A stretch of DNA of 64,000 nt from Methanobacteriota archaeon. Its GTDB lineage: Archaea; Thermoplasmatota; Thermoplasmata; SG8-5; DAIRED01. A program made the position numbers and the translations under genes. This document shows, piece after piece, positions 9,550 through 44,717 of the stretch. Positions within the stretch are counted from its first letter, which is position 1. Each line of letters starts with the position of its first letter. The notes beneath the pieces are model-generated. The model saw only the letters and a program-made list of their open reading frames with translations. It searched no databases and was not told where the DNA came from. The stretch is from NCBI GenBank assembly GCA_043799545.1, contig JAZDNO010000009.1:8262-72261 (forward strand), in the 5' to 3' direction.

Positions 9550-10089
9550 TCACCTGCGCCAGTACTTCATTATCGCAAATACGAGCAAAATGGCGGCTAT
9601 CGCGTGCATCAAAACACTTGATGGCAATTTGCCAAAGGGCATCAAGTTCAATCCCTCGATGGGGTCCCATGGCCAGAAAAGCGGGTTGTGCGGGTGGCTG
9701 AACAGGTCGATGAAAACGTGGCTGACTGTGCCCACCAACGCCGAAAAAACGACCGTCGGGTTGGTCATCCGCCGCTGGTTCGTGTCGATGCCTGCAAAAA
9801 TGTGCGCCCGGTCATTTGGATATTTGATGCTGAGCCAGGAGATTAGAGGCGCCGCAACGAAGTGCGCGTAGGCAAGGGCGAATATCATGTCGATTGTCAG
9901 CGCCCCCAATAACGAGTGCATCGGCCCCCTGGCGGCCTCCATGCCGCCCATGACGGGCCACATCAGAAGCAGTTCCATGTCGGGTATGAACGAGCCAATC
10001 GCCAGCGGGAGGAATTCCAGGCGCATTTTGAAGCGCGAGAAAACCGGCAGGGTGAAGCCTAGGTGGAGAGGGCCGACGGGCATTGGCAC
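9550..10089 (-). CDS. DUF4184-like / metal-dependent membrane hydrolase
   Basis: GPLH, GSFIPD, HSLLG, SHVFIDLFSH, PLFWP. Confidence 0.75.
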   Translation of the reverse strand: MPMPVGPLHLGFTLPVFSRFKMRLEFLPLAIGSFIPDMELLLMWPVMGGMEAARGPMHSLLGALTIDMIFALAYAHFVAAPLISWLSIKYPNDRAHIFAGIDTNQRRMTNPTVVFSALVGTVSHVFIDLFSHPHNPLFWPWDPIEGLNLMPFGKLPSSVLMHAIAAILLVFAIMKYWRR

Positions 10090-10177
10090 ATCAATGGACT
10101 ATGGGGTTAATACCGTTTGCCTCTTAGCATCCCAGCAACGGTTATATAGAATAGTAATCTACCCATGGTCGTAGAAT

Positions 10178-10355
10178 GCCGAGGTAGCTCGGGATGCGAC
10201 CGGGGTCGCAGACCGCGCGGACGAGCTGGCCAGCGTGCGAGGAGCTCGTCCAGCGCCGAGGGTTGCAGCAGCAACCCGAGGGCTACCGAATAAAAGCGTT
10301 AAGAAGCCGAGGTAGCTTGCGAGGGCGAACGAATTCGCCGAGCAAAAACCTCGGC
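10178..10355 (+). repeat. two structured elements starting with the tRNA-Ser 5' end (GCCGAGGTAGCT) upstream of tRNA-Ser(GGA)
   Basis: copies at 10178 and 10306; 10306..10355 is closed by GCCGAGGT/ACCTCGGC; GGACGAGCT/AGCTCGTCC hairpin at 10219..10251. Confidence 0.75.
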
Positions 10356-10371
10356 TAGCCGATAGCAAAGT

Positions 10372-10480
10372 GCCGAGGTGGCTCAGCCCGGTAAGGCGCG
10401 AGCCTGGAATCTCCCGCTTCGGCGGGAGGCTGAGAGCTCGTGGGGGCAACCCCTCGGGAGTTCAAATCTCCCCCTCGGCG
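10372..10480 (+). tRNA. tRNA-Ser(GGA) with 25-nt intron at 37/38 (10410..10434)
   Basis: acceptor GCCGAGG/CCTCGGC, anticodon stem CGAGC/GCTCG, long variable arm GGGG-GCAA-CCCC, T arm GGGAG-TTCAAAT-CTCCC, discriminator G; intron hairpin CTCCCGC-TTCG-GCGGGAG. Confidence 0.92.
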
Positions 10481-38003: not shown

Positions 38004-39266
38004 CTAACAATCGCAATCGTCGCTGGGGCTTTCGGACCTGAGTTTCTCTGGATAATCGCCCAGAATCCCCAGCAACCGCGATGCATCCCGCCAGATGCCG
38101 CGGACGAAGGAGCGCTCGCCCAGGCTCCACCTTTCCAAGTTCTGATTTGTGAGCGAGGCCAGCTTCTCAAGCTCCCCCAGCGCCATATCCGTCCGCAGGT
38201 CGTTTTCCAGATGCCCCAGCAGGAGCGCCCATAACTCTCCCGCTTTGTCCGGTCCCTTGGCACAGGGATGAATCCCGTCGGCCTCCGCCGAGGACGCGAG
38301 CGCGCGCCAGGAGTCCCTGATGAGGCCGAAGCGCGACGCAGCCGCGGCCATCGCATCGTCTGTGAAGTGCGTCTGTTCCCGGTAATGGCTCTGAAGGAGG
38401 AAGAACCTCACGGTTTCGCCCCCGAAGCGCCTGAAAAGGTCGCTCAGCTCGACCCTCACGCCTTTGGATTTCGAGAGCTTCTGCCCTTCGAACGTCACGT
38501 GCCCGTTGTGCATCCAGAAGCGGGACATGGGCCGGTCCAGCACCGCGCGGGCCATCAGCATCTCGGATTCGTGGTGCGGGAAGACCAGGTCCACGCCGCC
38601 CGTGTATATGTCGATGGGAGGACCGAGGTGCTTCTCCACGAAGGCGAAATCCTGAACGTGCCAGCCAGGCCGCCCTGGCCCCCAGGGACTTTCCCAAGAC
38701 AGGCGTCCGCTCGGCGCGGGTTCCCAAAGCGCGAAGTCCAGCGGGCTCTCTTTCGCCCCGGCAAGGTCTGCGTCGTGCGGCACGAGAGAATCTTCCAGAG
38801 GATGGCGCAGCAAACATCCGAAATCCTCTTTCCTCGCCCTGAGGTAGACCGCTTGCCCCCGCACGTAGGCCTTCCCGCTTGCCACTAGCATCTCCGCGAC
38901 CGAGATAATCTCTTGTATGTGCTCGGAGACCTTGGGCCTGAGTTCCGGGGGCATTATGTTCAGCAGGGCCATGTCGCGCTCGAAAGCCTTCTCGCAGCGC
39001 TCTGCCAGCTGCAACTCAGTCAACCCCTTGGCTGCGGACTTTCGAGCCGTCTCGTCTGAAACGTCCGTATAGTTCACGACGTGCTTGACTTCGAATCCCT
39101 CGTGGACCAGCATCCTTCGTGTCAGGTCCGCCGCCAGGTACGATTTCCCGTGCCCGAGGTGAACCCTGGCGTAGACGGTCGGGCCGCAGGTGAACATCTT
39201 CACCAGTCCGTCGGGGACCTCGAAAGGTTCCACCCGGCCGGTCATCGAGTTGAACAGGCTCAGCAT
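38004..39266 (-). CDS. CysRS paralog (class I aaRS-like ligase) without anticodon-binding tail
   Basis: TCGPTVY..VHLGH, NYTDV, DFALW, GRPGWHVQD, FPHHESE, KLSKSKG; ends after the DALR-like helices. Confidence 0.9.
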   Translation of the reverse strand: MLSLFNSMTGRVEPFEVPDGLVKMFTCGPTVYARVHLGHGKSYLAADLTRRMLVHEGFEVKHVVNYTDVSDETARKSAAKGLTELQLAERCEKAFERDMALLNIMPPELRPKVSEHIQEIISVAEMLVASGKAYVRGQAVYLRARKEDFGCLLRHPLEDSLVPHDADLAGAKESPLDFALWEPAPSGRLSWESPWGPGRPGWHVQDFAFVEKHLGPPIDIYTGGVDLVFPHHESEMLMARAVLDRPMSRFWMHNGHVTFEGQKLSKSKGVRVELSDLFRRFGGETVRFFLLQSHYREQTHFTDDAMAAAASRFGLIRDSWRALASSAEADGIHPCAKGPDKAGELWALLLGHLENDLRTDMALGELEKLASLTNQNLERWSLGERSFVRGIWRDASRLLGILGDYPEKLRSESPSDDCDC

Positions 39267-39267
39267 C

Positions 39268-40107
39268 TCATCCTTTCTCCAGCCCGCACAGGGCCAGCAT
39301 CCTCTCATCCAGCGGAACGGGTTTCGAGCCGTACGCCATCTCCATCGTTTTGAAGAGCGGCCTGAACCCGAGCCGTCCGACCGCGCTGCAGGCCGTGCGG
39401 TTCGCCTCCGGAATCGAGACCCAGACCTCCGAGCCGGCCTCGACCTTCCCCAGGAGCGCGTCCATCAGGACAAGCCCCTGCCCCCCCTTGGATGCCCACG
39501 GCCCGGCTTCGTAACCAGTGCGCTCCGAGCCGCGCGCGTACAGATAGCCTTCCACGGCGTCCCCGTCGACGCTCGCAAGGGCCAGCTCGGGAAATTCCCC
39601 CCGGAGTGATTTCAACATCCTTGTGCGGTCGGCTCGAAAGAGCCTCGCATCGAGTGAGTGAATTTCCTTGGCCAGCTTGTCGTCGACGTTGACGATCCCA
39701 TGCCCGCGGCACGTTATGCCGGCCTTGCCGCTCATCGTCACGAAGGCATCCCCCTTATGAAATCCGAGCCTCTCGTAGAACGGGACGACGCCCTCGTACG
39801 AGTACAAACGGATGTCCGTCGCGCCAGCGCCCTTCAGGTGCTGGATGCATGCGTTCGTCAGAGCCCGGCCGACACCAACCCTGCGGTGCCTGGAATCCAC
39901 GACAACGTTGCCTATGATGCCCGTTGCGCCGAAAGCCATGGCTGTGGCGAAGCCTTTCGGAACCCCGTCTTCCTCGCTCGCGAAGAATCCCCCGGGAAAC
40001 AGTCGGAGCAGCCGCTCAGCGTCCGCGGCCTCGTAGCTCCATCCGGCGGCGTTGGCAAGCGCCACGAAGATGTCTATATCCCCGTCCTCCAGATTGCGCA
40101 CAGTCAT
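39268..40107 (-). CDS. two-domain GNAT acetyltransferase
   Basis: GNVVVDSRHRRVGVG motif A, FYERLGF, second domain with ADRTRML and AGPW. Confidence 0.9.
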   Translation of the reverse strand: MTVRNLEDGDIDIFVALANAAGWSYEAADAERLLRLFPGGFFASEEDGVPKGFATAMAFGATGIIGNVVVDSRHRRVGVGRALTNACIQHLKGAGATDIRLYSYEGVVPFYERLGFHKGDAFVTMSGKAGITCRGHGIVNVDDKLAKEIHSLDARLFRADRTRMLKSLRGEFPELALASVDGDAVEGYLYARGSERTGYEAGPWASKGGQGLVLMDALLGKVEAGSEVWVSIPEANRTACSAVGRLGFRPLFKTMEMAYGSKPVPLDERMLALCGLEKG

Positions 40108-40339: not shown

Positions 40340-41890
40340 TCACAGATGCGAGGCCGGGACAACGTTGCCTGCGTTCAAAATCCGCCGGGGGTCGAGCGCC
40401 TTCTTGACCGAAGCGATTTCCTCCATCCCCTTCCGCCCGTACATCAGCTCGATGTACGGCGTAGGCTTTCCGCGGACATCCAGAACCTTCTTTCCCATCC
40501 CGTGCTCCCCCGAAAGCGTGCCCCCGAGGGATACAGCACGCTCCGCCAGCCCGACGTAGAGATTCTTCGCCATGGCAAGCTCTTCCGCGTTCTCGCTGAT
40601 GAAGTTGAAATGGAGGTGGCAGTCTCCCGCATGCCCGAAGAGGACGAAATGCGCCCCCGGCCTCGGAAACGCCTTGCTGAACGCCGCTCCAGCGCTGCTG
40701 TAAGCTTCCATCATCTCCCCGAACCGGCCATCGGGAACGGCCATGTCCGTGCCCATCTTGTGGCTCCGGCGCTCGCGGAGGTAGGCGTTCACCCTGTCCG
40801 GCAGGGAGTGACGGAACTCCTTGAGCCCCCTGACGTCGCGCTCGTTGTTGGCGCACCAGTCCTCTGTCGAACCCAGCTCGCGCAGCCTCTTTTCGATAGG
40901 CGCGAGCGAGCTGGGCTCCCCGCACGCCATCTCGAAGAATATCGCTCCCCCGGCGCCTTCCGGGACTTCCGGGTTCTCCTCGCGGATGAAACCGAGCGAA
41001 TTCTCGTCGAAGTACTCCACCGAGAGAATCCCCTCCGCGCGCATGGGCCTCAGCCAGTCGGCGAACCTCATTGCCGAGTCACCCGTCCTGAAGAAAGCGA
41101 TGTCGGAGGCTATGCCACCGGGCTTCGGCGCGAGACGCAATTCCACCTGGGATATTGCACCGAGGATGCCCTCGCTTCCCACGAAGAGGTCCACGAGGTC
41201 CATCCCCGGTTTGGAGTACAGCCCGGCGTTGTGCTTGACCGCTGGCATTTTGTAAGTCGGGATACCGAACCTGTACCGGTTGCCCTGCTCCGAGCGGAAG
41301 TCGAAGTATCCGTCGGGGCTGGCGCAGATTTTCCCCCGCTTGACGCCGAGCGTATCACCGTTGGTCAACACGACCCTCAAACCCTGGACCCATTCCCTCG
41401 TCGCGCCATAATTGAAGCATCTGGCCCCCGAAGCGTTCGTGGCGACCGTGCCCCCGACCTGAGCGGATGTCTCCGTCGGGTCTGGAGGATAAATCGCGGT
41501 CTTCGGCAGGGCTCCCGTCAACTCGAGCAGCGGGATGCCGGGCGGAACAACTGCCCTGAGCCCAGAGCGGTCGAGCAGGAACGACGAAGGCCCGGCCAGC
41601 CCAAGATATTCCACGCGCTCGAAGCCGTCCCGAGCTTCGATGCGGACCATCTCCGCCATCGAGACGACGAGCCCGCCTGACTTGGGCACGCGCGCCCCGG
41701 TCACGCCCGTCCCCGCGCCCGAAACCGTCACCTTCTTCTTTTGAAGGCTGGCATCGCGCAGGATCTCTGCCAGCTCGCTCTCGCTCGCTGGGAAATAGAC
41801 CGCTTCCACTGAACCCGGTTCGGCGTAGTGGGCGTTGCTCTCGTCGGTCAGGAATTCCTCGAACGCTTCGGAAGAGGTCTCGACGCGCAT
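40340..41890 (-). CDS. FAD-binding oxidoreductase (GlcD/D-lactate dehydrogenase family)
   Basis: SGAGTGVTG, PPDPT...QVGGTVATNASG, FVGSEGILG, GHAGDCHLH, SGEHGMGK, LNAG. Confidence 0.92.
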   Translation of the reverse strand: MRVETSSEAFEEFLTDESNAHYAEPGSVEAVYFPASESELAEILRDASLQKKKVTVSGAGTGVTGARVPKSGGLVVSMAEMVRIEARDGFERVEYLGLAGPSSFLLDRSGLRAVVPPGIPLLELTGALPKTAIYPPDPTETSAQVGGTVATNASGARCFNYGATREWVQGLRVVLTNGDTLGVKRGKICASPDGYFDFRSEQGNRYRFGIPTYKMPAVKHNAGLYSKPGMDLVDLFVGSEGILGAISQVELRLAPKPGGIASDIAFFRTGDSAMRFADWLRPMRAEGILSVEYFDENSLGFIREENPEVPEGAGGAIFFEMACGEPSSLAPIEKRLRELGSTEDWCANNERDVRGLKEFRHSLPDRVNAYLRERRSHKMGTDMAVPDGRFGEMMEAYSSAGAAFSKAFPRPGAHFVLFGHAGDCHLHFNFISENAEELAMAKNLYVGLAERAVSLGGTLSGEHGMGKKVLDVRGKPTPYIELMYGRKGMEEIASVKKALDPRRILNAGNVVPASHL

Positions 41891-41984
41891 CGGTCGGAGG
41901 AGAGCCCCCAAAGTAAAAACCTTTTCCGTTGATATGCGTGGAAATTATTATTATGGCTCAGTAATATGCCATTGTCAGTCATGT

Positions 41985-42193
41985 GCCGAGGTAACTAAGC
42001 CCGGTTTACGCCTGACGAGCAAGCTCGTCCGCGCCTCGTGGCTTCGCCACTTCGGAGGTGCCAGCCTGGCACTAAAACCTTTTATATGCCTAGGTAACTA
42101 AGCCCGGTTTACGCTGGACGAGCTGCGCTCGTCCGCGCCTCGTGGCTTCGCCACTTCGGAGGTGCCAGCTACTGGCACTAAAACCTTTGATAC
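41985..42193 (+). repeat. two tandem 103/106-nt repeats made of the tRNA-Ser(TGA) 5' half with a 47-48 nt insert
   Basis: units 41985..42087 and 42088..42193: GCC(G/T)AGGTAACTAAGCCCGGTTTA + insert + AGGTGCCAGC + TGGCACTAAAACCTTT. Confidence 0.9.
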
Positions 42194-42308
42194 GCCGAGG
42201 TAACTAAGCCCGGTTTAAGGTGCCAGCCTTGAGTGCGCCAGAAAAAGAACTGGTGCCTGGCGAGCTGGTGGTGTCATCACCTCGGGAGTTCGAATCTCCC
42301 CCTCGGCG
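42194..42308 (+). tRNA. tRNA-Ser(TGA) with 29-nt intron at 37/38 (42234..42262)
   Basis: acceptor GCCGAGG/CCTCGGC, anticodon stem CCAGC/GCTGG, loop CT-TGA-G^A, variable arm GGTG/CACC, T arm GGGAG-TTCGAAT-CTCCC; intron stem GCGCCAG/CTGGTGC gives a relaxed BHB. Confidence 0.93.
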
Positions 42309-42332
42309 CTACACTTTTTTATCGCTTTCAAT

Positions 42333-42443
42333 CGCGCCGAGGGGAGACTAATCTTTGCTGGTAGTAAGTAATAACCGATTAATCTTACCCTCAGAGACAC
42401 ACCAAATCCACGTTGCTAGTCTCTTCGGTCTCCCCCTCGGCGC
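42333..42443 (+). repeat. downstream inverted-repeat element ending in a 15-bp copy of the tRNA 3' end
   Basis: CGCGCCGAGGGGAGACTAATC... TAGTCTCTTCGG, then TCTCCCCCTCGGCGC (42429..42443 = 42295..42309). Confidence 0.75.
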
Positions 42444-42502
42444 ATCATGTTGCTTCTCCGTCAGCCGTTAATCTTTTATCCCCTCGCGGCGTAAGGGGAA
42501 AC

Positions 42503-43273
42503 ATGACCGATTTGAAGGATTTGGACGTGAGCACGAGCATGAAGGAGACCGTCAGGCTCATCAACGTTGCGCTGGATTCGCTCAACGCCAACGCGCTCGC
42601 CGGCAAGCCATCGGCGCTCTCGGCGGCTGAGAAGGGGACGGTGGACGTGGTGAAAAAGAAGCTCCTGGAAGTAGAGGAGGCGTTCTGGCGCCCGCTCGAT
42701 TCCCCGGAGACGTTCGAGAGGCTGGCCAAAGTGGCCGCTTCCATCGGAGACGGTGACCTGATTAAGTACTGCCAGAAGCAGAAGAACATGGTAATCGGCA
42801 CAGAGATACATTTCAAGGGCTACTGCCAGCTGTTCTACGGCAACGCCAAGGAGGCCGTCGTGCACCTAAAGAAGGCCGTGGAGCTGGCGCCCGACCTGGA
42901 CGTGGCCCCGAAGGACTACGAGACCGCGGTGAAGCGCGTGGCCAAGGCCGAAAAGGACCTGCCCGCCATCAACAGGATGATGTCGACGAAGGGTGAGACT
43001 GCGGAGCTATTGCAGAAGAAGGCCGTCGCGCTCATGGCTTTGGGCAACGTCGACGAGGCGATTCCGCTCTTCGACAAGGTCATCAAGCTCGAACCGACGA
43101 ACCCGGAGGCGTGGGGGAAGCGCGGGACCGCGCTGGAGAGCCTGGGCAAGTTCGACGAGGCGGTTCCGTACCTGAGCAAGGCGCTCGCCCTGAAGCCGAC
43201 GTCGATAACGGCAAAGAGGGGGCTCGGCCTTGCGACCTTCTGGACCAAGGGCGGGGAGAAGCCGGTAGATTAG
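42503..43273 (+). CDS. TPR-repeat protein
   Basis: KKAVALMALG..DEAIPLFDKVIKLEP, AWGKRGTALESLG..DEAV. Confidence 0.85.
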   Translation: MTDLKDLDVSTSMKETVRLINVALDSLNANALAGKPSALSAAEKGTVDVVKKKLLEVEEAFWRPLDSPETFERLAKVAASIGDGDLIKYCQKQKNMVIGTEIHFKGYCQLFYGNAKEAVVHLKKAVELAPDLDVAPKDYETAVKRVAKAEKDLPAINRMMSTKGETAELLQKKAVALMALGNVDEAIPLFDKVIKLEPTNPEAWGKRGTALESLGKFDEAVPYLSKALALKPTSITAKRGLGLATFWTKGGEKPVD

Positions 43274-43307: not shown

Positions 43308-44717
43308 GTGAACGGCGTGGCACTCAAGGTACACAACACTATGACCGGCGAGCTGGAAGAGTTCGCTCCAGTGAATCCCGGGCGGGCGGGGATGTACGTC
43401 TGCGGCATCAACACGTACGACAACAGCCACATGGGCCACGCGAAGTCGGCGGTCATGTTCGACGTCGTGCGCAGGCACATAGAGCGCAGGGGGTTCGCAG
43501 TCAAATACGTCGTCAACTTCACGGACGTGGAAGACCACTGCATACAGCGGGCGAACGAGCTGGGCATCACGATTCACGACCTCGCGAAGACCTACATTGC
43601 GGAATATTTCAAGGACATGAGGGCGCTGGGCGTCCGCGACGCGGACGTTTATCCAATCGCGACGGAGCACATCCCTGAGATGATTGCGGGAATCCAGAAG
43701 CTCATCGAAAACGGCCACGCCTACGAGGCCGCTGGCTCCGTGTATTTCAGCGTGAGGAGGGCTGAGGAGTACGGCAAGCTCTCGCACCAGACCCTGGAGG
43801 ACATGCAATCCTCGGGGAGAGTTGAAATCGAGGAGGGGAAGCGCGACCCCATGGACTTCGCGCTCTGGAAGGCCTGGAAGGAGGGGGAGCCTTCGTGGGA
43901 TTCGCCTTGGGGGAAGGGACGCCCTGGCTGGCACATCGAATGCAGCGTGATGTCCATGAAATATCTCGGCGAGACCCTGGACGTCCACGGCGGCGGAAAC
44001 GAGCTCATCTTCCCGCACCACGAGAACGAGAGGCTCCAGTCCGAAGCGCTCACTGGAAAGCCATTCTCCAAGTACTGGCTCCACGGCGGGATGCTGATGA
44101 TTGATGGCGAGGAGATGCACAAGTCCAAGGGCAACTTCTTCACTATCAAGGACGTTCTCAAGCTCTACGAGCCAGGCGTGATACGCTTCTTCCTACTGAA
44201 CACCCACTACCGCAAGCCGATAGACTACAGCGCGAGGGCGCTGGACGAGGCAAAGCAGTCCCTGGCGAGGCTGCGCTCGGTGGGCGAGAGGCTGGAGGGC
44301 GCAAAGACCGCCGCGCATCCGAACCAGGAGCTATGGGAGCGCGTGAAGAAAGCGCGTGCGGACTTCGAGGCGTCGATGGACGAGGACTTCAACACGCGCG
44401 GGGCAATCTCTGCCGTTTTCGAGGTGTCCAGGGAGCTGAACAAGGCGCTGGACGAGGGGAAGCTGTGCGTGATGGCCAAGAACGAGGCGCTATCGCTCTT
44501 CGGAGAATTCGAGAAACTCTTCGGAGTGCTGGCGCGGGGTAAAGATGAGGCCGCAGACGACCCGCAGTCGCCGGAGGTACAAAGGCTTGTCGATGAGCGC
44601 GAGGCCGCGAGGAAGCGCAGGGACTTCAAGGCCGCAGACGCGATACGCGACAGGCTTAAGGCGATGGGAATCATTGTCGAGGACGCTCCAGAGGGCACGA
44701 AATGGAAGAGAGCATAG
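43308..44717 (+). CDS. cysS: cysteine--tRNA ligase (canonical)
   Basis: VCG...HMGH, GRPGWHIECS, DVHGGG, FPHHENE, MHKSKGN, C-terminal ARKRRDFKAADAIRDRL...IVED. Confidence 0.97.
   Translation: MNGVALKVHNTMTGELEEFAPVNPGRAGMYVCGINTYDNSHMGHAKSAVMFDVVRRHIERRGFAVKYVVNFTDVEDHCIQRANELGITIHDLAKTYIAEYFKDMRALGVRDADVYPIATEHIPEMIAGIQKLIENGHAYEAAGSVYFSVRRAEEYGKLSHQTLEDMQSSGRVEIEEGKRDPMDFALWKAWKEGEPSWDSPWGKGRPGWHIECSVMSMKYLGETLDVHGGGNELIFPHHENERLQSEALTGKPFSKYWLHGGMLMIDGEEMHKSKGNFFTIKDVLKLYEPGVIRFFLLNTHYRKPIDYSARALDEAKQSLARLRSVGERLEGAKTAAHPNQELWERVKKARADFEASMDEDFNTRGAISAVFEVSRELNKALDEGKLCVMAKNEALSLFGEFEKLFGVLARGKDEAADDPQSPEVQRLVDEREAARKRRDFKAADAIRDRLKAMGIIVEDAPEGTKWKRA

What the first reader, a model, noticed from the sequence alone, without database searches (positions are those of the whole stretch)
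41985..42193. Tandem array of tRNA-Ser(TGA) 5' halves, each interrupted in the D-loop by a hairpin cassette
Seen: two ~105-nt units directly precede the intact tRNA. Each carries the first 24 tRNA nt (one mismatch in unit 2), then a 47-48 nt insert (GACGAGC/GCTCGTC and GTGGC/GCCAC hairpins; GCGCCTC can pair with the following GAGGTGC), then the next 10 tRNA nt (AGGTGCCAGC). These refold into a GTGCCA/TGGCAC hairpin followed by AAAACCTTT(T). tRNA-linked duplications from integrases normally involve the 3' end, so repeated 5' halves with a fixed insert are unusual. Inference: footprint of a small mobile hairpin element that targets the D-loop and regenerates the tRNA, or a processed leader ncRNA array, or D-loop intron-like modules.
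Basis: partly seen in the sequence, partly recalled or inferred. Interest (0 to 1): 0.8.

Follow-up and report, generated by a model that had tools for sequence, protein, structure and literature searches.

The report
Stacked dead tRNA-Ser halves with hairpin inserts
Two dead copies of the front half of a serine tRNA gene, each split by a small twin-hairpin insert, sit before the live gene of an uncultured Thermoplasmata archaeon; they are one case of an apparently undescribed family of tiny gene-less modules that pile up at tRNA genes across this archaeal order.

Summary
Two units (41985-42087 and 42088-42193) precede an intron-bearing tRNA-Ser(TGA) at 42194-42308. Each unit holds tRNA nt 1-24, a 47/48-nt twin-hairpin insert, the next 10-12 tRNA nt (ending at U33), a fold-back of that segment and an A/T-rich end motif.

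The insert is not unique. A covariance model finds it in 16 of 22 genomes of this order and in 0 of 133 other sampled genomes of the class. Across 53 copies, 94.6% of stem cells pair and 16 of 18 pairs show compensatory changes.

It lies in D-loops of displaced 5' tRNA copies (Ser, Thr, Asn, Lys), at tRNA 5' ends and in intergenic repeats. In this genome, 17 of 49 predicted tRNA genes have upstream copies of their own 5' end and 15 have downstream copies of their 3' end.

A congener has a different module next to the same tRNA. Stems are almost purely Watson-Crick, unlike the genome's tRNA stems.

Best reading (0.58): small gene-less DNA modules inserted into the gene while its 5' part was regenerated, were then tandemly duplicated, and are now transcribed as a leader. 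A D-loop intron is not supported. An RNA-level role stays open.

I found no published description. Earlier notes of this scan report related modules on other DNA.

The parts
41937..41958 (+). Promoter-like block (CGTGGAAATTATTATTATGGCT; BRE/TATA-like). Inferred to be the original tRNA-Ser promoter, now driving unit 1, unit 2 and the tRNA as one precursor.
   Evidence: It is identical 22/22 in the congener G001 within otherwise diverged intergenic DNA. Its 3' end lies about 30 nt before 41985, close to the 23-27 nt spacing seen at module-free tRNA genes of this genome. Transcription was not tested.
41985..42087 (+). Unit 1: a displaced 5' half of tRNA-Ser(TGA). It holds nt 1-24, a 47-nt type-A twin-hairpin insert (42009-42055), tRNA nt 25-36 up to U33 (42056-42067), fold-back CTGGCAC (42066-42072, overlapping that identity by 2 nt) and the A/T-rich end motif TAAAACCTTTTATAT.
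   Evidence: The covariance model hit is 73.3 bits. It is orthologous to the single unit of G001:C95. Folding z-score is -3.2 as RNA.
42088..42193 (+). Unit 2: a second displaced 5' half with one mismatch in nt 1-24. It holds a 48-nt type-A insert (42112-42159), AGGTGCCAGC, TA+CTGGCAC and the end motif TAAAACCTTTGATAC. It is probably a tandem duplicate of unit 1.
   Evidence: The covariance model hit is 82.1 bits. It is 93% identical to unit 1, against 87-88% for either unit to the G001 ortholog. Folding z-score is about -4 on either strand, as RNA or DNA.
42194..42308 (+). Intact tRNA-Ser(TGA) gene with a long variable arm and no encoded CCA. A canonical anticodon-loop intron lies at about 42234-42262.
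   Evidence: Rfam RF00005 scores 40 bits against a gathering score of 29. The exons are identical in G001 while the intron differs (29 vs 49 nt). Only one other Ser-like gene (GGA) matched in the genome search.
42334..42443 (+). Downstream module of the same general kind. It has an inverted copy (42334-42344/47) and an exact direct copy (42429-42443) of the tRNA's last 15 nt, enclosing hairpins.
   Evidence: the repeat finder D5, I2 and I3. Related modules follow tRNA-Ser and tRNA-Cys genes here and in G001/G002.

Best explanation
The two units are dead, displaced copies of the 5' half of the tRNA-Ser(UGA) gene, running from nt 1 to the anticodon loop. Each is interrupted in its D-loop by a 47/48-nt twin-hairpin element ('type A': CRC-U-[hairpin 1]-GYG-CCUCG-[hairpin 2]-CUUCGG). 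This element belongs to a family of gene-less, roughly 50-100-nt structured DNA modules confined to one order of Thermoplasmata.

Mechanism, with the status of each step:
(a) Shown: the insert family recurs at the same D-loop position in displaced 5' copies of several tRNAs, always with an intact gene copy just downstream. It also occurs outside tRNA genes.
(b) Shown: the displaced copies end in the anticodon loop and are capped by a short inverted copy of the tRNA's own strand.
(c) Inferred: DNA was inserted into the live gene together with, or so as to create, a fresh copy of the gene's 5' part. The copy joined to the 3' part therefore stays functional, and older copies are pushed upstream towards the original promoter.
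(d) Inferred: the second unit arose by unequal crossing-over between the 24-nt repeats after the split from the sister species.
(e) Inferred: the whole array is transcribed from the conserved promoter at 41937-41958 as a leader of about 210 nt, which RNase P removes.
(f) Shown: base pairing of the hairpins is maintained by compensatory change, in a Watson-Crick-only pattern. This fits DNA-level or both-strand folding better than a sense-strand RNA.

The enzyme is unknown. Candidates present in the genome are tRNA-adjacent tyrosine integrases acting in trans on miniature elements, and Y1 (HUH) single-strand transposases.
For: The repeat anatomy is confirmed. Distribution: the type-A model R1 hits 16/22 genomes of the order and 0/133 other sampled genomes of the class.

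Contexts (by reading): the D-loop of 5' partial copies of Ser, Thr, Asn, Lys and other tRNAs, each with an intact copy within about 100 nt; abutting tRNA-Thr 5' ends; and intergenic repeats without a tRNA. G015:C164 shows the mirror arrangement: an intact tRNA-Ser, then type A plus tRNA nt 25-end.

Genome-wide habit: of 49 predicted tRNA genes, 17 have upstream copies of their own first 10 nt and 15 have downstream copies of their last 12 nt. About 0.6 and 0.05 are expected by chance.

Turnover: at the orthologous locus, G001 has unit A followed by a different module that duplicates tRNA nt 1-12, where G000 has unit 2. G002 has the opposite order, B then A.

Structure: 94.6% of cells are paired, 16/18 pairs show compensatory changes, and the covariation score is 0.49 against 0.16 for shuffled and at most 0.10 for slid controls. 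There are five compensatory double substitutions and none disruptive between G000 and G001 at the tRNA-Thr unit. G.U:A.C is 6:10 in type-A stems against 22:1 in this genome's tRNA stems (Fisher p = 1e-4).

Promoter: the promoter block is conserved 22/22, at the usual distance from unit 1. Units 1 and 2 are closer to each other (93%) than to the G001 ortholog (87-88%). There is no ORF with a family hit in the units and no Rfam family. Three Y1 transposase genes and three tRNA-adjacent tyrosine recombinase genes are present. A precedent exists for a 5' tRNA fragment plus an insert at 24/25 made by an integrating element (PMC3293823).
Against: No empty-site/filled-site pair for this exact locus, no excised form and no strain polymorphism was found, so mobility is inferred from comparison only.

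No enzyme is linked to the modules. Presence of Y1 transposase does not track presence of type A, and integrases are normally specific for one att site.

Known hairpin transposons (IS200/IS605, REP) make no target duplication. Known integrase scars flank kb-sized DNA, not about 80 nt.

Compensatory evolution at orthologous, vertically inherited copies suggests a role at the locus, which a purely selfish scar would not need.

The copies used for the G.U statistics are related, so the p-value overstates. The alignment was also fitted to the model.

Transcription, the RNase P step and the order of events are untested. It cannot yet be told whether type A arrived together with the duplication or later, in an already dead copy.
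Confidence: 0.58

Rival explanations
1. The units are a purpose-built leader RNA array. They would be functional structured RNAs co-transcribed with the tRNA, for example a protein-binding twin-hairpin domain, a processing or insulation element, or a sponge-like by-product released by RNase P. On this reading the tRNA-like segments are part of the RNA's function rather than scars.
For: A conserved promoter lies upstream of unit 1. There is strong covariation and an invariant internal loop (UC/UUC between CC/GG and hairpin 2) across 53 copies. Compensatory changes occur at orthologous copies in two congeners. The same domain is reused in other, non-tRNA structured repeats. Folding z-scores are -3 to -4.
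Against: The stems lack the G.U over A.C excess that this genome's tRNAs show (6:10 vs 22:1). Both strands fold equally well. The tRNA-like 5' segment has decayed in the G001 ortholog while the hairpins are kept. Module type and order differ between close relatives at the same tRNA, and many tRNA genes of the same genome have no module. No Rfam family matches. No RNA data could be obtained.
Confidence: 0.2
2. The units are ordinary integrase scars: attL-type 5' fragments left by successive integrations of kb-sized plasmids or viruses that carried the tRNA's 5' half. Nearly all of the element DNA was later deleted. This would resemble CIME-like remnants and tandem accretion.
For: The displaced copies end in the anticodon loop (U33), and downstream modules break in the T-loop. 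I recall from Williams 2002 (listed in the references of PMC9897764; not read here) that these loops are the usual crossover sites. Three tyrosine recombinase genes lie directly beside tRNA genes in this genome. In Caldiarchaeum, an integrating element left a 5' tRNA-Thr fragment and an intron at 24/25 (PMC3293823). G015 shows the mirror arrangement, as expected if elements can carry either half.
Against: Only 79-82 nt lie between the repeats, with no ORF. The same tiny size recurs at more than 17 tRNA genes, with shared end motifs. Many modules carry both acceptor strands or inverted copies, which att duplication does not produce. The hairpins are under structural selection rather than decaying. 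The same insert occurs at different tRNAs, whereas an integrase has one att site. No distal att copies were found for the integrase-adjacent tRNAs.
Confidence: 0.14
3. The insert is a genuine D-loop intron, or the units are split-tRNA 5' halves. Unit RNA would be spliced, in cis or in trans, to the 3' part to make mature tRNA-Ser.
For: Non-canonical D-loop insertions do exist in sole intact tRNA genes of this order: G015 tRNA-Ser(TGA) carries another 33-nt insert at the same place. A weak bulge-helix-bulge-like arrangement can be drawn for unit 1. Because the sequence is periodic, splicing from unit nt 24 to tRNA nt 25 would give the correct tRNA.
Against: An intact, uninterrupted gene follows, so no splicing is needed. 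The interrupted copies lack everything after U33. In every tRNA-linked context where both flanks could be read, a type-A-bearing copy is accompanied by an intact copy. The nucleotides a central BHB helix would need are used in the covarying CRC/GYG helix. The BHB scan was weak and not conserved between units.
Confidence: 0.03
4. The feature is an assembly artefact or a chance repeat.
For: The genome is a 31-contig MAG, and reads could not be examined.
Against: The units differ at 7 aligned positions plus 3 gap columns. The same unit architecture appears in independent assemblies: G001 and a JGI contig identical to it, G002, and G017 with two JGI contigs. The 24-nt and 43-nt identities are far beyond chance.
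Confidence: 0.01

Closest known systems
Displaced 5' tRNA fragments made by integrating elements in Archaea (Caldiarchaeum tRNA-Thr model, Sugahara et al. 2012, PMC3293823; pNOB8/SSV-type integrases)
   Same: [quoted passage not shown] An extra insert sits at position 24/25. The breakpoint of the displaced copy is in a tRNA loop. Tyrosine recombinases lie beside tRNA genes in this genome.
   Different: There, 1.8 kb with a recombinase gene lies between fragment and gene. Here the gap is about 80 nt with no gene, it recurs at many tRNA genes, it is stacked in tandem, and its hairpins are kept by compensatory change.
CIMEs and tandem accretion at att sites of integrative elements (bacterial ICE/IME literature; named from my own knowledge and an earlier scan note, not read here)
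   Same: Gene-poor remnants bounded by att-type repeats, stacked in tandem at a tRNA gene, and presumed to be mobilised in trans.
   Different: CIMEs are kb-sized and decay. These modules are about 100 nt, structured, order-wide, and also carry inverted copies of the tRNA end.
REP/BIME elements with RAYT, and IS200/IS605 gene-less derivatives (PATEs)
   Same: Small gene-less hairpin repeats with covarying Watson-Crick stems, many copies per genome and lineage-restricted. Y1 (HUH) transposase genes are present at one to three per genome in most genomes of the order.
   Different: Those families make no target duplication and do not copy the ends of a neighbouring gene. No guide tetranucleotide or linkage to a Y1 gene was found here.
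Integron attC sites (folded single-strand recombination sites)
   Same: Structure is conserved and sequence is free. There is a conserved bulged base (T after CRC) and a conserved mismatch. The same twin hairpin also sits in repeats between small genes (an earlier scan note reports cassette arrays in this genome).
   Different: No IntI-type integrase or R'/R'' core sites were identified, and the location inside tRNA-derived sequence is not an integron feature.
Non-canonical archaeal tRNA introns and intron transposition (Thermoproteales; Fujishima/Sugahara/Kanai work, recalled from memory apart from PMC3293823)
   Same: Related short inserts lie at the same non-canonical position in different tRNA genes.
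   Different: Those introns sit in the only functional gene copy and carry a bulge-helix-bulge motif. Type A sits in truncated copies that cannot yield a tRNA.

Membership tests
tRNA (Rfam RF00005), for 42194-42308 | Cloverleaf covariance model score at or above the gathering score | tested here: met
   40 bits against a gathering score of 29, full model 1-71, with an insertion in the anticodon loop and a long variable arm.
tRNA (Rfam RF00005), for the two units | Complete cloverleaf, including anticodon arm, T arm and 3' acceptor strand | tested here: not met
   No tRNA hit on 41985-42193 at E<=1. tRNA identity stops at nt 34-36.
Archaeal protein-spliced tRNA intron | Bulge-helix-bulge motif (3-nt bulges flanking a 4-bp helix) at both exon-intron junctions | tested here: inconclusive
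   My crude scan found only a weak motif (outer helices of 1-2 bp) in unit 1. For unit 2 the coordinates were offset by one base and the run was not repeated. The positive control (the gene's own canonical intron) also scored weakly. The nucleotides needed lie in the covarying CRC/GYG helix.
Archaeal protein-spliced tRNA intron | Interrupts an otherwise complete gene that needs splicing to function | tested here: not met
   The units lack nt 35-end. In all tRNA-linked contexts where both flanks could be read, an intact copy accompanies the interrupted one.
Split / trans-spliced tRNA | No intact gene; separate halves with complementary leader and trailer | tested here: not met
   An intact gene lies directly downstream.
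Integrase att duplication (attL/attR at a tRNA gene) | Direct repeat of a tRNA segment flanking the inserted DNA, with one copy completing an intact gene | tested here: met
   24 nt are repeated three times, and the downstream copy is part of the intact gene.
Integrase att duplication (attL/attR at a tRNA gene) | An integrated element, with integrase or other genes, between the repeats | tested here: not met
   79-82 nt lie between repeats. The only ORF of 88 aa has no Pfam hit.
MITE | Terminal inverted repeats and a short fixed target-site duplication | tested here: not met
   The inverted repeats found are internal hairpins only. The unit ends are not inverted repeats, and the flanking duplication is 24 nt or more and varies between tRNAs.
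REP/RAYT or IS200/IS605-derived hairpin elements | Imperfect hairpin repeats, dispersed, structure conserved | tested here: met
   53 copies in 16 genomes, with covariation in 16/18 pairs and Watson-Crick-only stems.
REP/RAYT or IS200/IS605-derived hairpin elements | Cognate Y1 transposase that recognises the hairpin (linkage or co-occurrence), and insertion without target duplication | tested here: inconclusive
   Y1_Tnp genes are present (3 in G000; 16/22 genomes), but they are not adjacent to type-A copies and their co-occurrence is uninformative. Long duplications are present, unlike in this family.
Integron attC | IntI integrase and R''/R' core sites (GTTRRRY) bounding the hairpin | not tested
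   Only the resemblance was noted: bulged T, conserved mismatch, and presence in inter-gene repeats.
Any described RNA family (Rfam 15) | Covariance model match | tested here: not met
   No family other than tRNA matched in the window region or in seven related loci at E<=1.

The most novel reading that the evidence does not exclude
tRNA genes of this Thermoplasmata order act as landing pads for a previously unknown kind of miniature self-propagating element. On this reading, a roughly 50-100-nt folded-DNA module inserts at conserved tRNA loops (D, anticodon, T) and copies the displaced end of its target, including fold-back inverted copies, so that the gene survives. The same twin hairpin would serve as the recombination site of gene-cassette arrays elsewhere in the genome. 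That would be a new transposition or recombination chemistry, or a new use of integrases or HUH enzymes, linking tRNA genes to an integron-like system in Archaea.
Probability: 0.2. Interest if true: 0.85.

Novelty: new variant of a known kind. Interest (0 to 1): 0.65.

Why it matters
How archaeal tRNA genes become interrupted, split and duplicated is a long-standing question. The usual answer, integration of large plasmids and viruses, rests on a few cases.

Here a whole order shows the process in miniature and in bulk. About a third of the tRNA genes of one genome carry stacked, roughly 100-nt gene-less modules that copy the gene's own ends. Module content differs between sister species, and the hairpins are kept by compensatory change.

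This gives a tractable system, with many independent events and short sequences, for working out the mechanism. It also lets one test the idea that tRNA gene fragmentation and mobile DNA are linked.

There are practical consequences too. Such arrays mislead tRNA finders: ARAGORN missed this gene. They also inflate counts of tRNA fragments in metagenome-assembled genomes.

Tried and rejected
Things tried that led nowhere:
- Exact-pattern scan of genome contigs: most of the 53 hits were chance matches in bacteria, and two archaeal-looking ones were coding sequence. Only the known relatives were real.
- Metagenome scan: it recovered contigs identical to G001 and G017 but no copy-number variant or empty site for this locus.
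- Bulge-helix-bulge scan: weak and inconclusive. My scanner also scored the true canonical intron poorly, and the unit 2 run used coordinates offset by one base.
- Distal att copies for the three integrase-adjacent tRNAs: none found in the assembly.
- Y1 transposase flanks and co-occurrence: no link to type A.

Ideas considered and rejected:
- Hammerhead-like CUGANGA in unit 1: absent from unit 2 and all relatives, with no GAAA core and no Rfam ribozyme hit.
- K-turn: there are no tandem G.A pairs in the type-A internal loop.
- Pseudo-acceptor stem between GCCGAGG and CUUCGG, as seen in the minimum-free-energy fold of unit 1: rejected because the GG of CUUCGG pairs with the CC of CCUCG with covariation (CG to UA in 10 copies), and because tRNA-Thr units cannot form it.
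- Closing helix GGUUU/AAACC in the fold of unit 2: invariant where present and absent in other families, so there is no evidence for it.
- Protein coding: the 88-aa ORF 41835-42101 has no Pfam hit.
- The linker as the tRNA's own promoter: it resembles the genome's BRE/TATA consensus but lies at -14 to -1, against -23 to -27 for the TATA 3' end at module-free tRNA genes. This is left unexplained.

Full report
OBSERVATION

The window is G000:C15:8262-72261 of a 2.06-Mb, 31-contig archaeal MAG. Record titles of its relatives name Thermoplasmatota, including 'Candidatus Proteinoplasmatales SG8-5'.

Reading 41700-42600, Tandem Repeats Finder (41984-42217, period 104, 2.2 copies, 91%) and the repeat finder confirm the array. 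Unit 1 is 41985-42087 (103 nt), unit 2 is 42088-42193 (106 nt), and then comes the gene.

ARAGORN in default mode finds no tRNA. The Rfam tRNA model scores 40 bits (gathering 29) at 42194-42308, with an insertion of about 29 nt in the anticodon loop, anticodon TGA and a long variable arm.

Each unit has the following parts:
- tRNA nt 1-24 (one mismatch in unit 2);
- a 47/48-nt insert;
- the next 10 tRNA nt (12 in unit 1, ending at U33);
- CTGGCAC, which folds back on GTGCCAG;
- TAAAACCTTT(T/G)ATA(T/C).

The units differ at 7 aligned positions plus 3 gap columns. No ORF with a family hit overlaps them.

THE INSERT IS A FAMILY

The unit does not recur in this genome as a whole, but relatives have it.
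- G001 (same genus) has one unit before tRNA-Ser(CGA) and one at the orthologous Ser(TGA) locus.
- G002 (another family) has one before Ser(TGA).
- G017 has one with a different hairpin-1 sequence that still pairs.

An alignment of ten inserts gave a consensus of two hairpins: CRC, a bulged U, hairpin 1, GYG; then CC, an internal loop UC/UUC, hairpin 2, and GG within CUUCGG.

A covariance model finds it in 16 of 22 genomes of the order and in none of 133 other sampled genomes of the class. On 53 aligned copies, 94.6% of cells pair and 16 of 18 pairs show changes on both sides. The covariation score is 0.49, against 0.16 for shuffles and at most 0.10 for slid partners. The alignment was fitted to the model, which favours it somewhat. 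No Rfam family matches.

CONTEXTS

Read by eye, the contexts are:
(i) The D-loop of a 5' partial copy of a tRNA (Ser, Thr, Asn, Lys and others). This is followed by 3-14 nt more of that tRNA, which often ends in the anticodon loop, then a 20-40-nt linker and the intact gene.
(ii) Directly abutting the 5' end of tRNA-Thr in several genomes.
(iii) Inside intergenic structured repeats with no tRNA: G000:C17:296 and C10:27450, five places in G001, and others.
(iv) In G015:C164, the mirror image. An intact tRNA-Ser(TGA) that carries another 33-nt D-loop insert is followed 170 nt later by type A joined to tRNA nt 25-end.

In the contexts where both flanks could be read, I saw no type-A copy inside a sole functional gene.

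A GENOME-WIDE HABIT

Of the 49 tRNA genes ARAGORN predicts in G000 (a few are doubtful calls), 17 have a copy of their own first 10 nt (at most 1 mismatch) within 450 nt upstream. Fifteen have a copy of their last 12 nt downstream. Chance expects about 0.6 and 0.05.

Other module types exist. One is a mini-helix that carries both acceptor strands around a hairpin. Another is a 3' copy interrupted in the T-loop. A third pairs an inverted with a direct copy of the 3' end. The tRNA-Ser(TGA) studied here has one of the last kind at 42334-42443.

All upstream modules in G000 end with a related A/T-rich motif (AAAACNTTTGATA...) directly before the next tRNA-type 5' end.

TURNOVER AND SELECTION

The orthologous locus in G001 shares the flanking gene, a 22/22 identical promoter-like block (41937-41958), unit 1 and identical tRNA exons. 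Between unit and gene, however, G001 holds a different module that duplicates tRNA nt 1-12, where G000 has unit 2. The canonical introns also differ, at 29 vs 49 nt. G002 has these two module types in the opposite order.

Units 1 and 2 are 93% identical, against 87-88% for either to the G001 unit. This fits a tandem duplication after the split.

At tRNA-Thr(TGT), the G000 and G001 units differ by five compensatory double substitutions in the three helices and by no disruptive one. Pairing is therefore kept in place.

The stems are almost purely Watson-Crick. G.U is 6 and A.C is 10 of 810 cells, leaving out one site with a conserved A.C. Stems of 32 tRNAs of the same genome give 22 G.U and 1 A.C of 544. 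Fisher p is 1e-4, but the copies are related, so this is indicative only. Both strands fold equally well as RNA or DNA, with z about -3 to -4.

WHERE TRANSCRIPTION PROBABLY STARTS

At module-free tRNA genes of G000, the TATA-like box ends 23-27 nt before the mature 5' end. The conserved block at 41937-41958 ends about 30 nt before unit 1. Unit 1 therefore sits where the gene's 5' end should be, and everything from unit nt 25 to tRNA nt 24 looks like DNA inserted into the gene. The linkers resemble the same promoter consensus but lie at -14 to -1, which I cannot explain.

INTERPRETATION

The best reading is a DNA-level origin. A small gene-less structured module entered the gene, the 5' part was regenerated, older copies were pushed towards the promoter, and one unit was later duplicated. 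The array is now a transcribed leader removed by RNase P (inferred).

I cannot tell whether type A arrived with the duplication or later, in an already dead copy. Its presence away from tRNAs and the anticodon-loop breakpoints favour two steps. The uniform architecture favours one.

Candidate enzymes are the three tyrosine recombinases that lie beside tRNA genes and the Y1 transposases. Neither is linked to the modules.

The closest published case is the Caldiarchaeum tRNA-Thr locus. There, a 1.8-kb element with a recombinase left a 5' fragment and an intron at 24/25 (PMC3293823). Partial tRNA genes beside 9-23-kb islands are common (PMC9897764). Four literature searches found no description of roughly 100-nt modules of this kind.

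Earlier AI notes of this scan describe related modules at other tRNA genes of this genome and in other Thermoplasmata. I used them as leads and tested what I cite.

RIVALS

- A dedicated leader RNA remains possible (0.20). In-place compensatory change argues for it; the G.U pattern, decay of the tRNA-like part in G001 and module turnover argue against it.
- Decayed scars of large integrated elements (0.14) fit the breakpoints but not the uniform tiny size, the shared end motifs, the inverted copies or the structural selection.
- A spliced D-loop intron or split tRNA (0.03) and an artefact (0.01) are disfavoured.

VERDICT

This is one instance of an order-wide, apparently undescribed family of miniature tRNA-end-copying modules. 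Novelty: new variant of a known kind. Interest: 0.65.

Noticed in passing
window 10057-10371 (upstream of tRNA-Ser(GGA) at 10372-10480): Two further module types precede this second intron-bearing tRNA-Ser. 'Module B' holds tRNA nt 1-12 plus three hairpins, one of them GGACGAGC/GCTCGTCC as in type A. A roughly 60-nt mini-helix carries both acceptor strands (GCCGAGG...CCTCGGC) around a hairpin with tandem GA/GA. The TATA-like box lies upstream of the first module.
   Followed up: partly
window 42334-42443: The module downstream of tRNA-Ser(TGA) has an inverted copy and an exact 15-nt direct copy of the tRNA 3' end enclosing hairpins. The direct copy plus the next bases (CCTCGGCGCATCA) is 12/13 complementary to the linker plus tRNA start (TGATACGCCGAGG), so a leader-trailer helix is possible.
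   Followed up: partly
L101 (G015:C164), minus strand, about 835-715 and 546-426: The sole intact tRNA-Ser(TGA) of G015 carries a different 33-nt insert at the same D-loop position and so presumably needs non-canonical splicing. A truncated copy (type A plus nt 25-end) lies 170 nt downstream, the mirror image of the window's array.
   Followed up: partly
alignment A2, columns 17/68 (hairpin 1 of type A in family f3 genomes): There is a conserved A.C mismatch on the tRNA-sense strand (a G.T wobble on the opposite strand) while neighbouring pairs covary. There is also a conserved bulged T after CRC. Together these could mark the strand or site that a protein recognises.
   Followed up: no
G000:C17:296-367 and G000:C10:27450-27521; G001 C135, C175, C233, C61, C152; G002 C48, C60, C64: The same twin hairpin is embedded in longer structured intergenic repeats. 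These are rich in CTTTCTTTG/CAAAGAAAG pairings and lie between protein genes, not next to tRNAs. Earlier scan notes call such regions cassette arrays.
   Followed up: no
G000:C25:29957-30582: A 158-aa Y1 (HUH) transposase gene is followed by a roughly 55-nt partial copy of the 5' part of tRNA-Leu(GAG), a TATA-like box and the intact tRNA-Leu gene.
   Followed up: no
window 38004-39308 (-) and 43308-44717 (+): Two cysteinyl-tRNA-synthetase-type genes flank the locus. One is full length, with DALR and anticodon-binding domains. The other is a 434-aa paralog with the catalytic domain only.
   Followed up: no
window 42073-42087, 42179-42193 and 41912-41939; upstream of many tRNA genes of G000: The A/T-rich motif AAAACNTTTGATA(nGCAAAG) ends every upstream module and resembles the genome's BRE/TATA consensus, yet it abuts the next tRNA-type 5' end. 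In G001 the same motif is followed by 16 more nt (GCAAAGATGGAGCAGT) that G000 lacks. Its role is unknown.
   Followed up: partly
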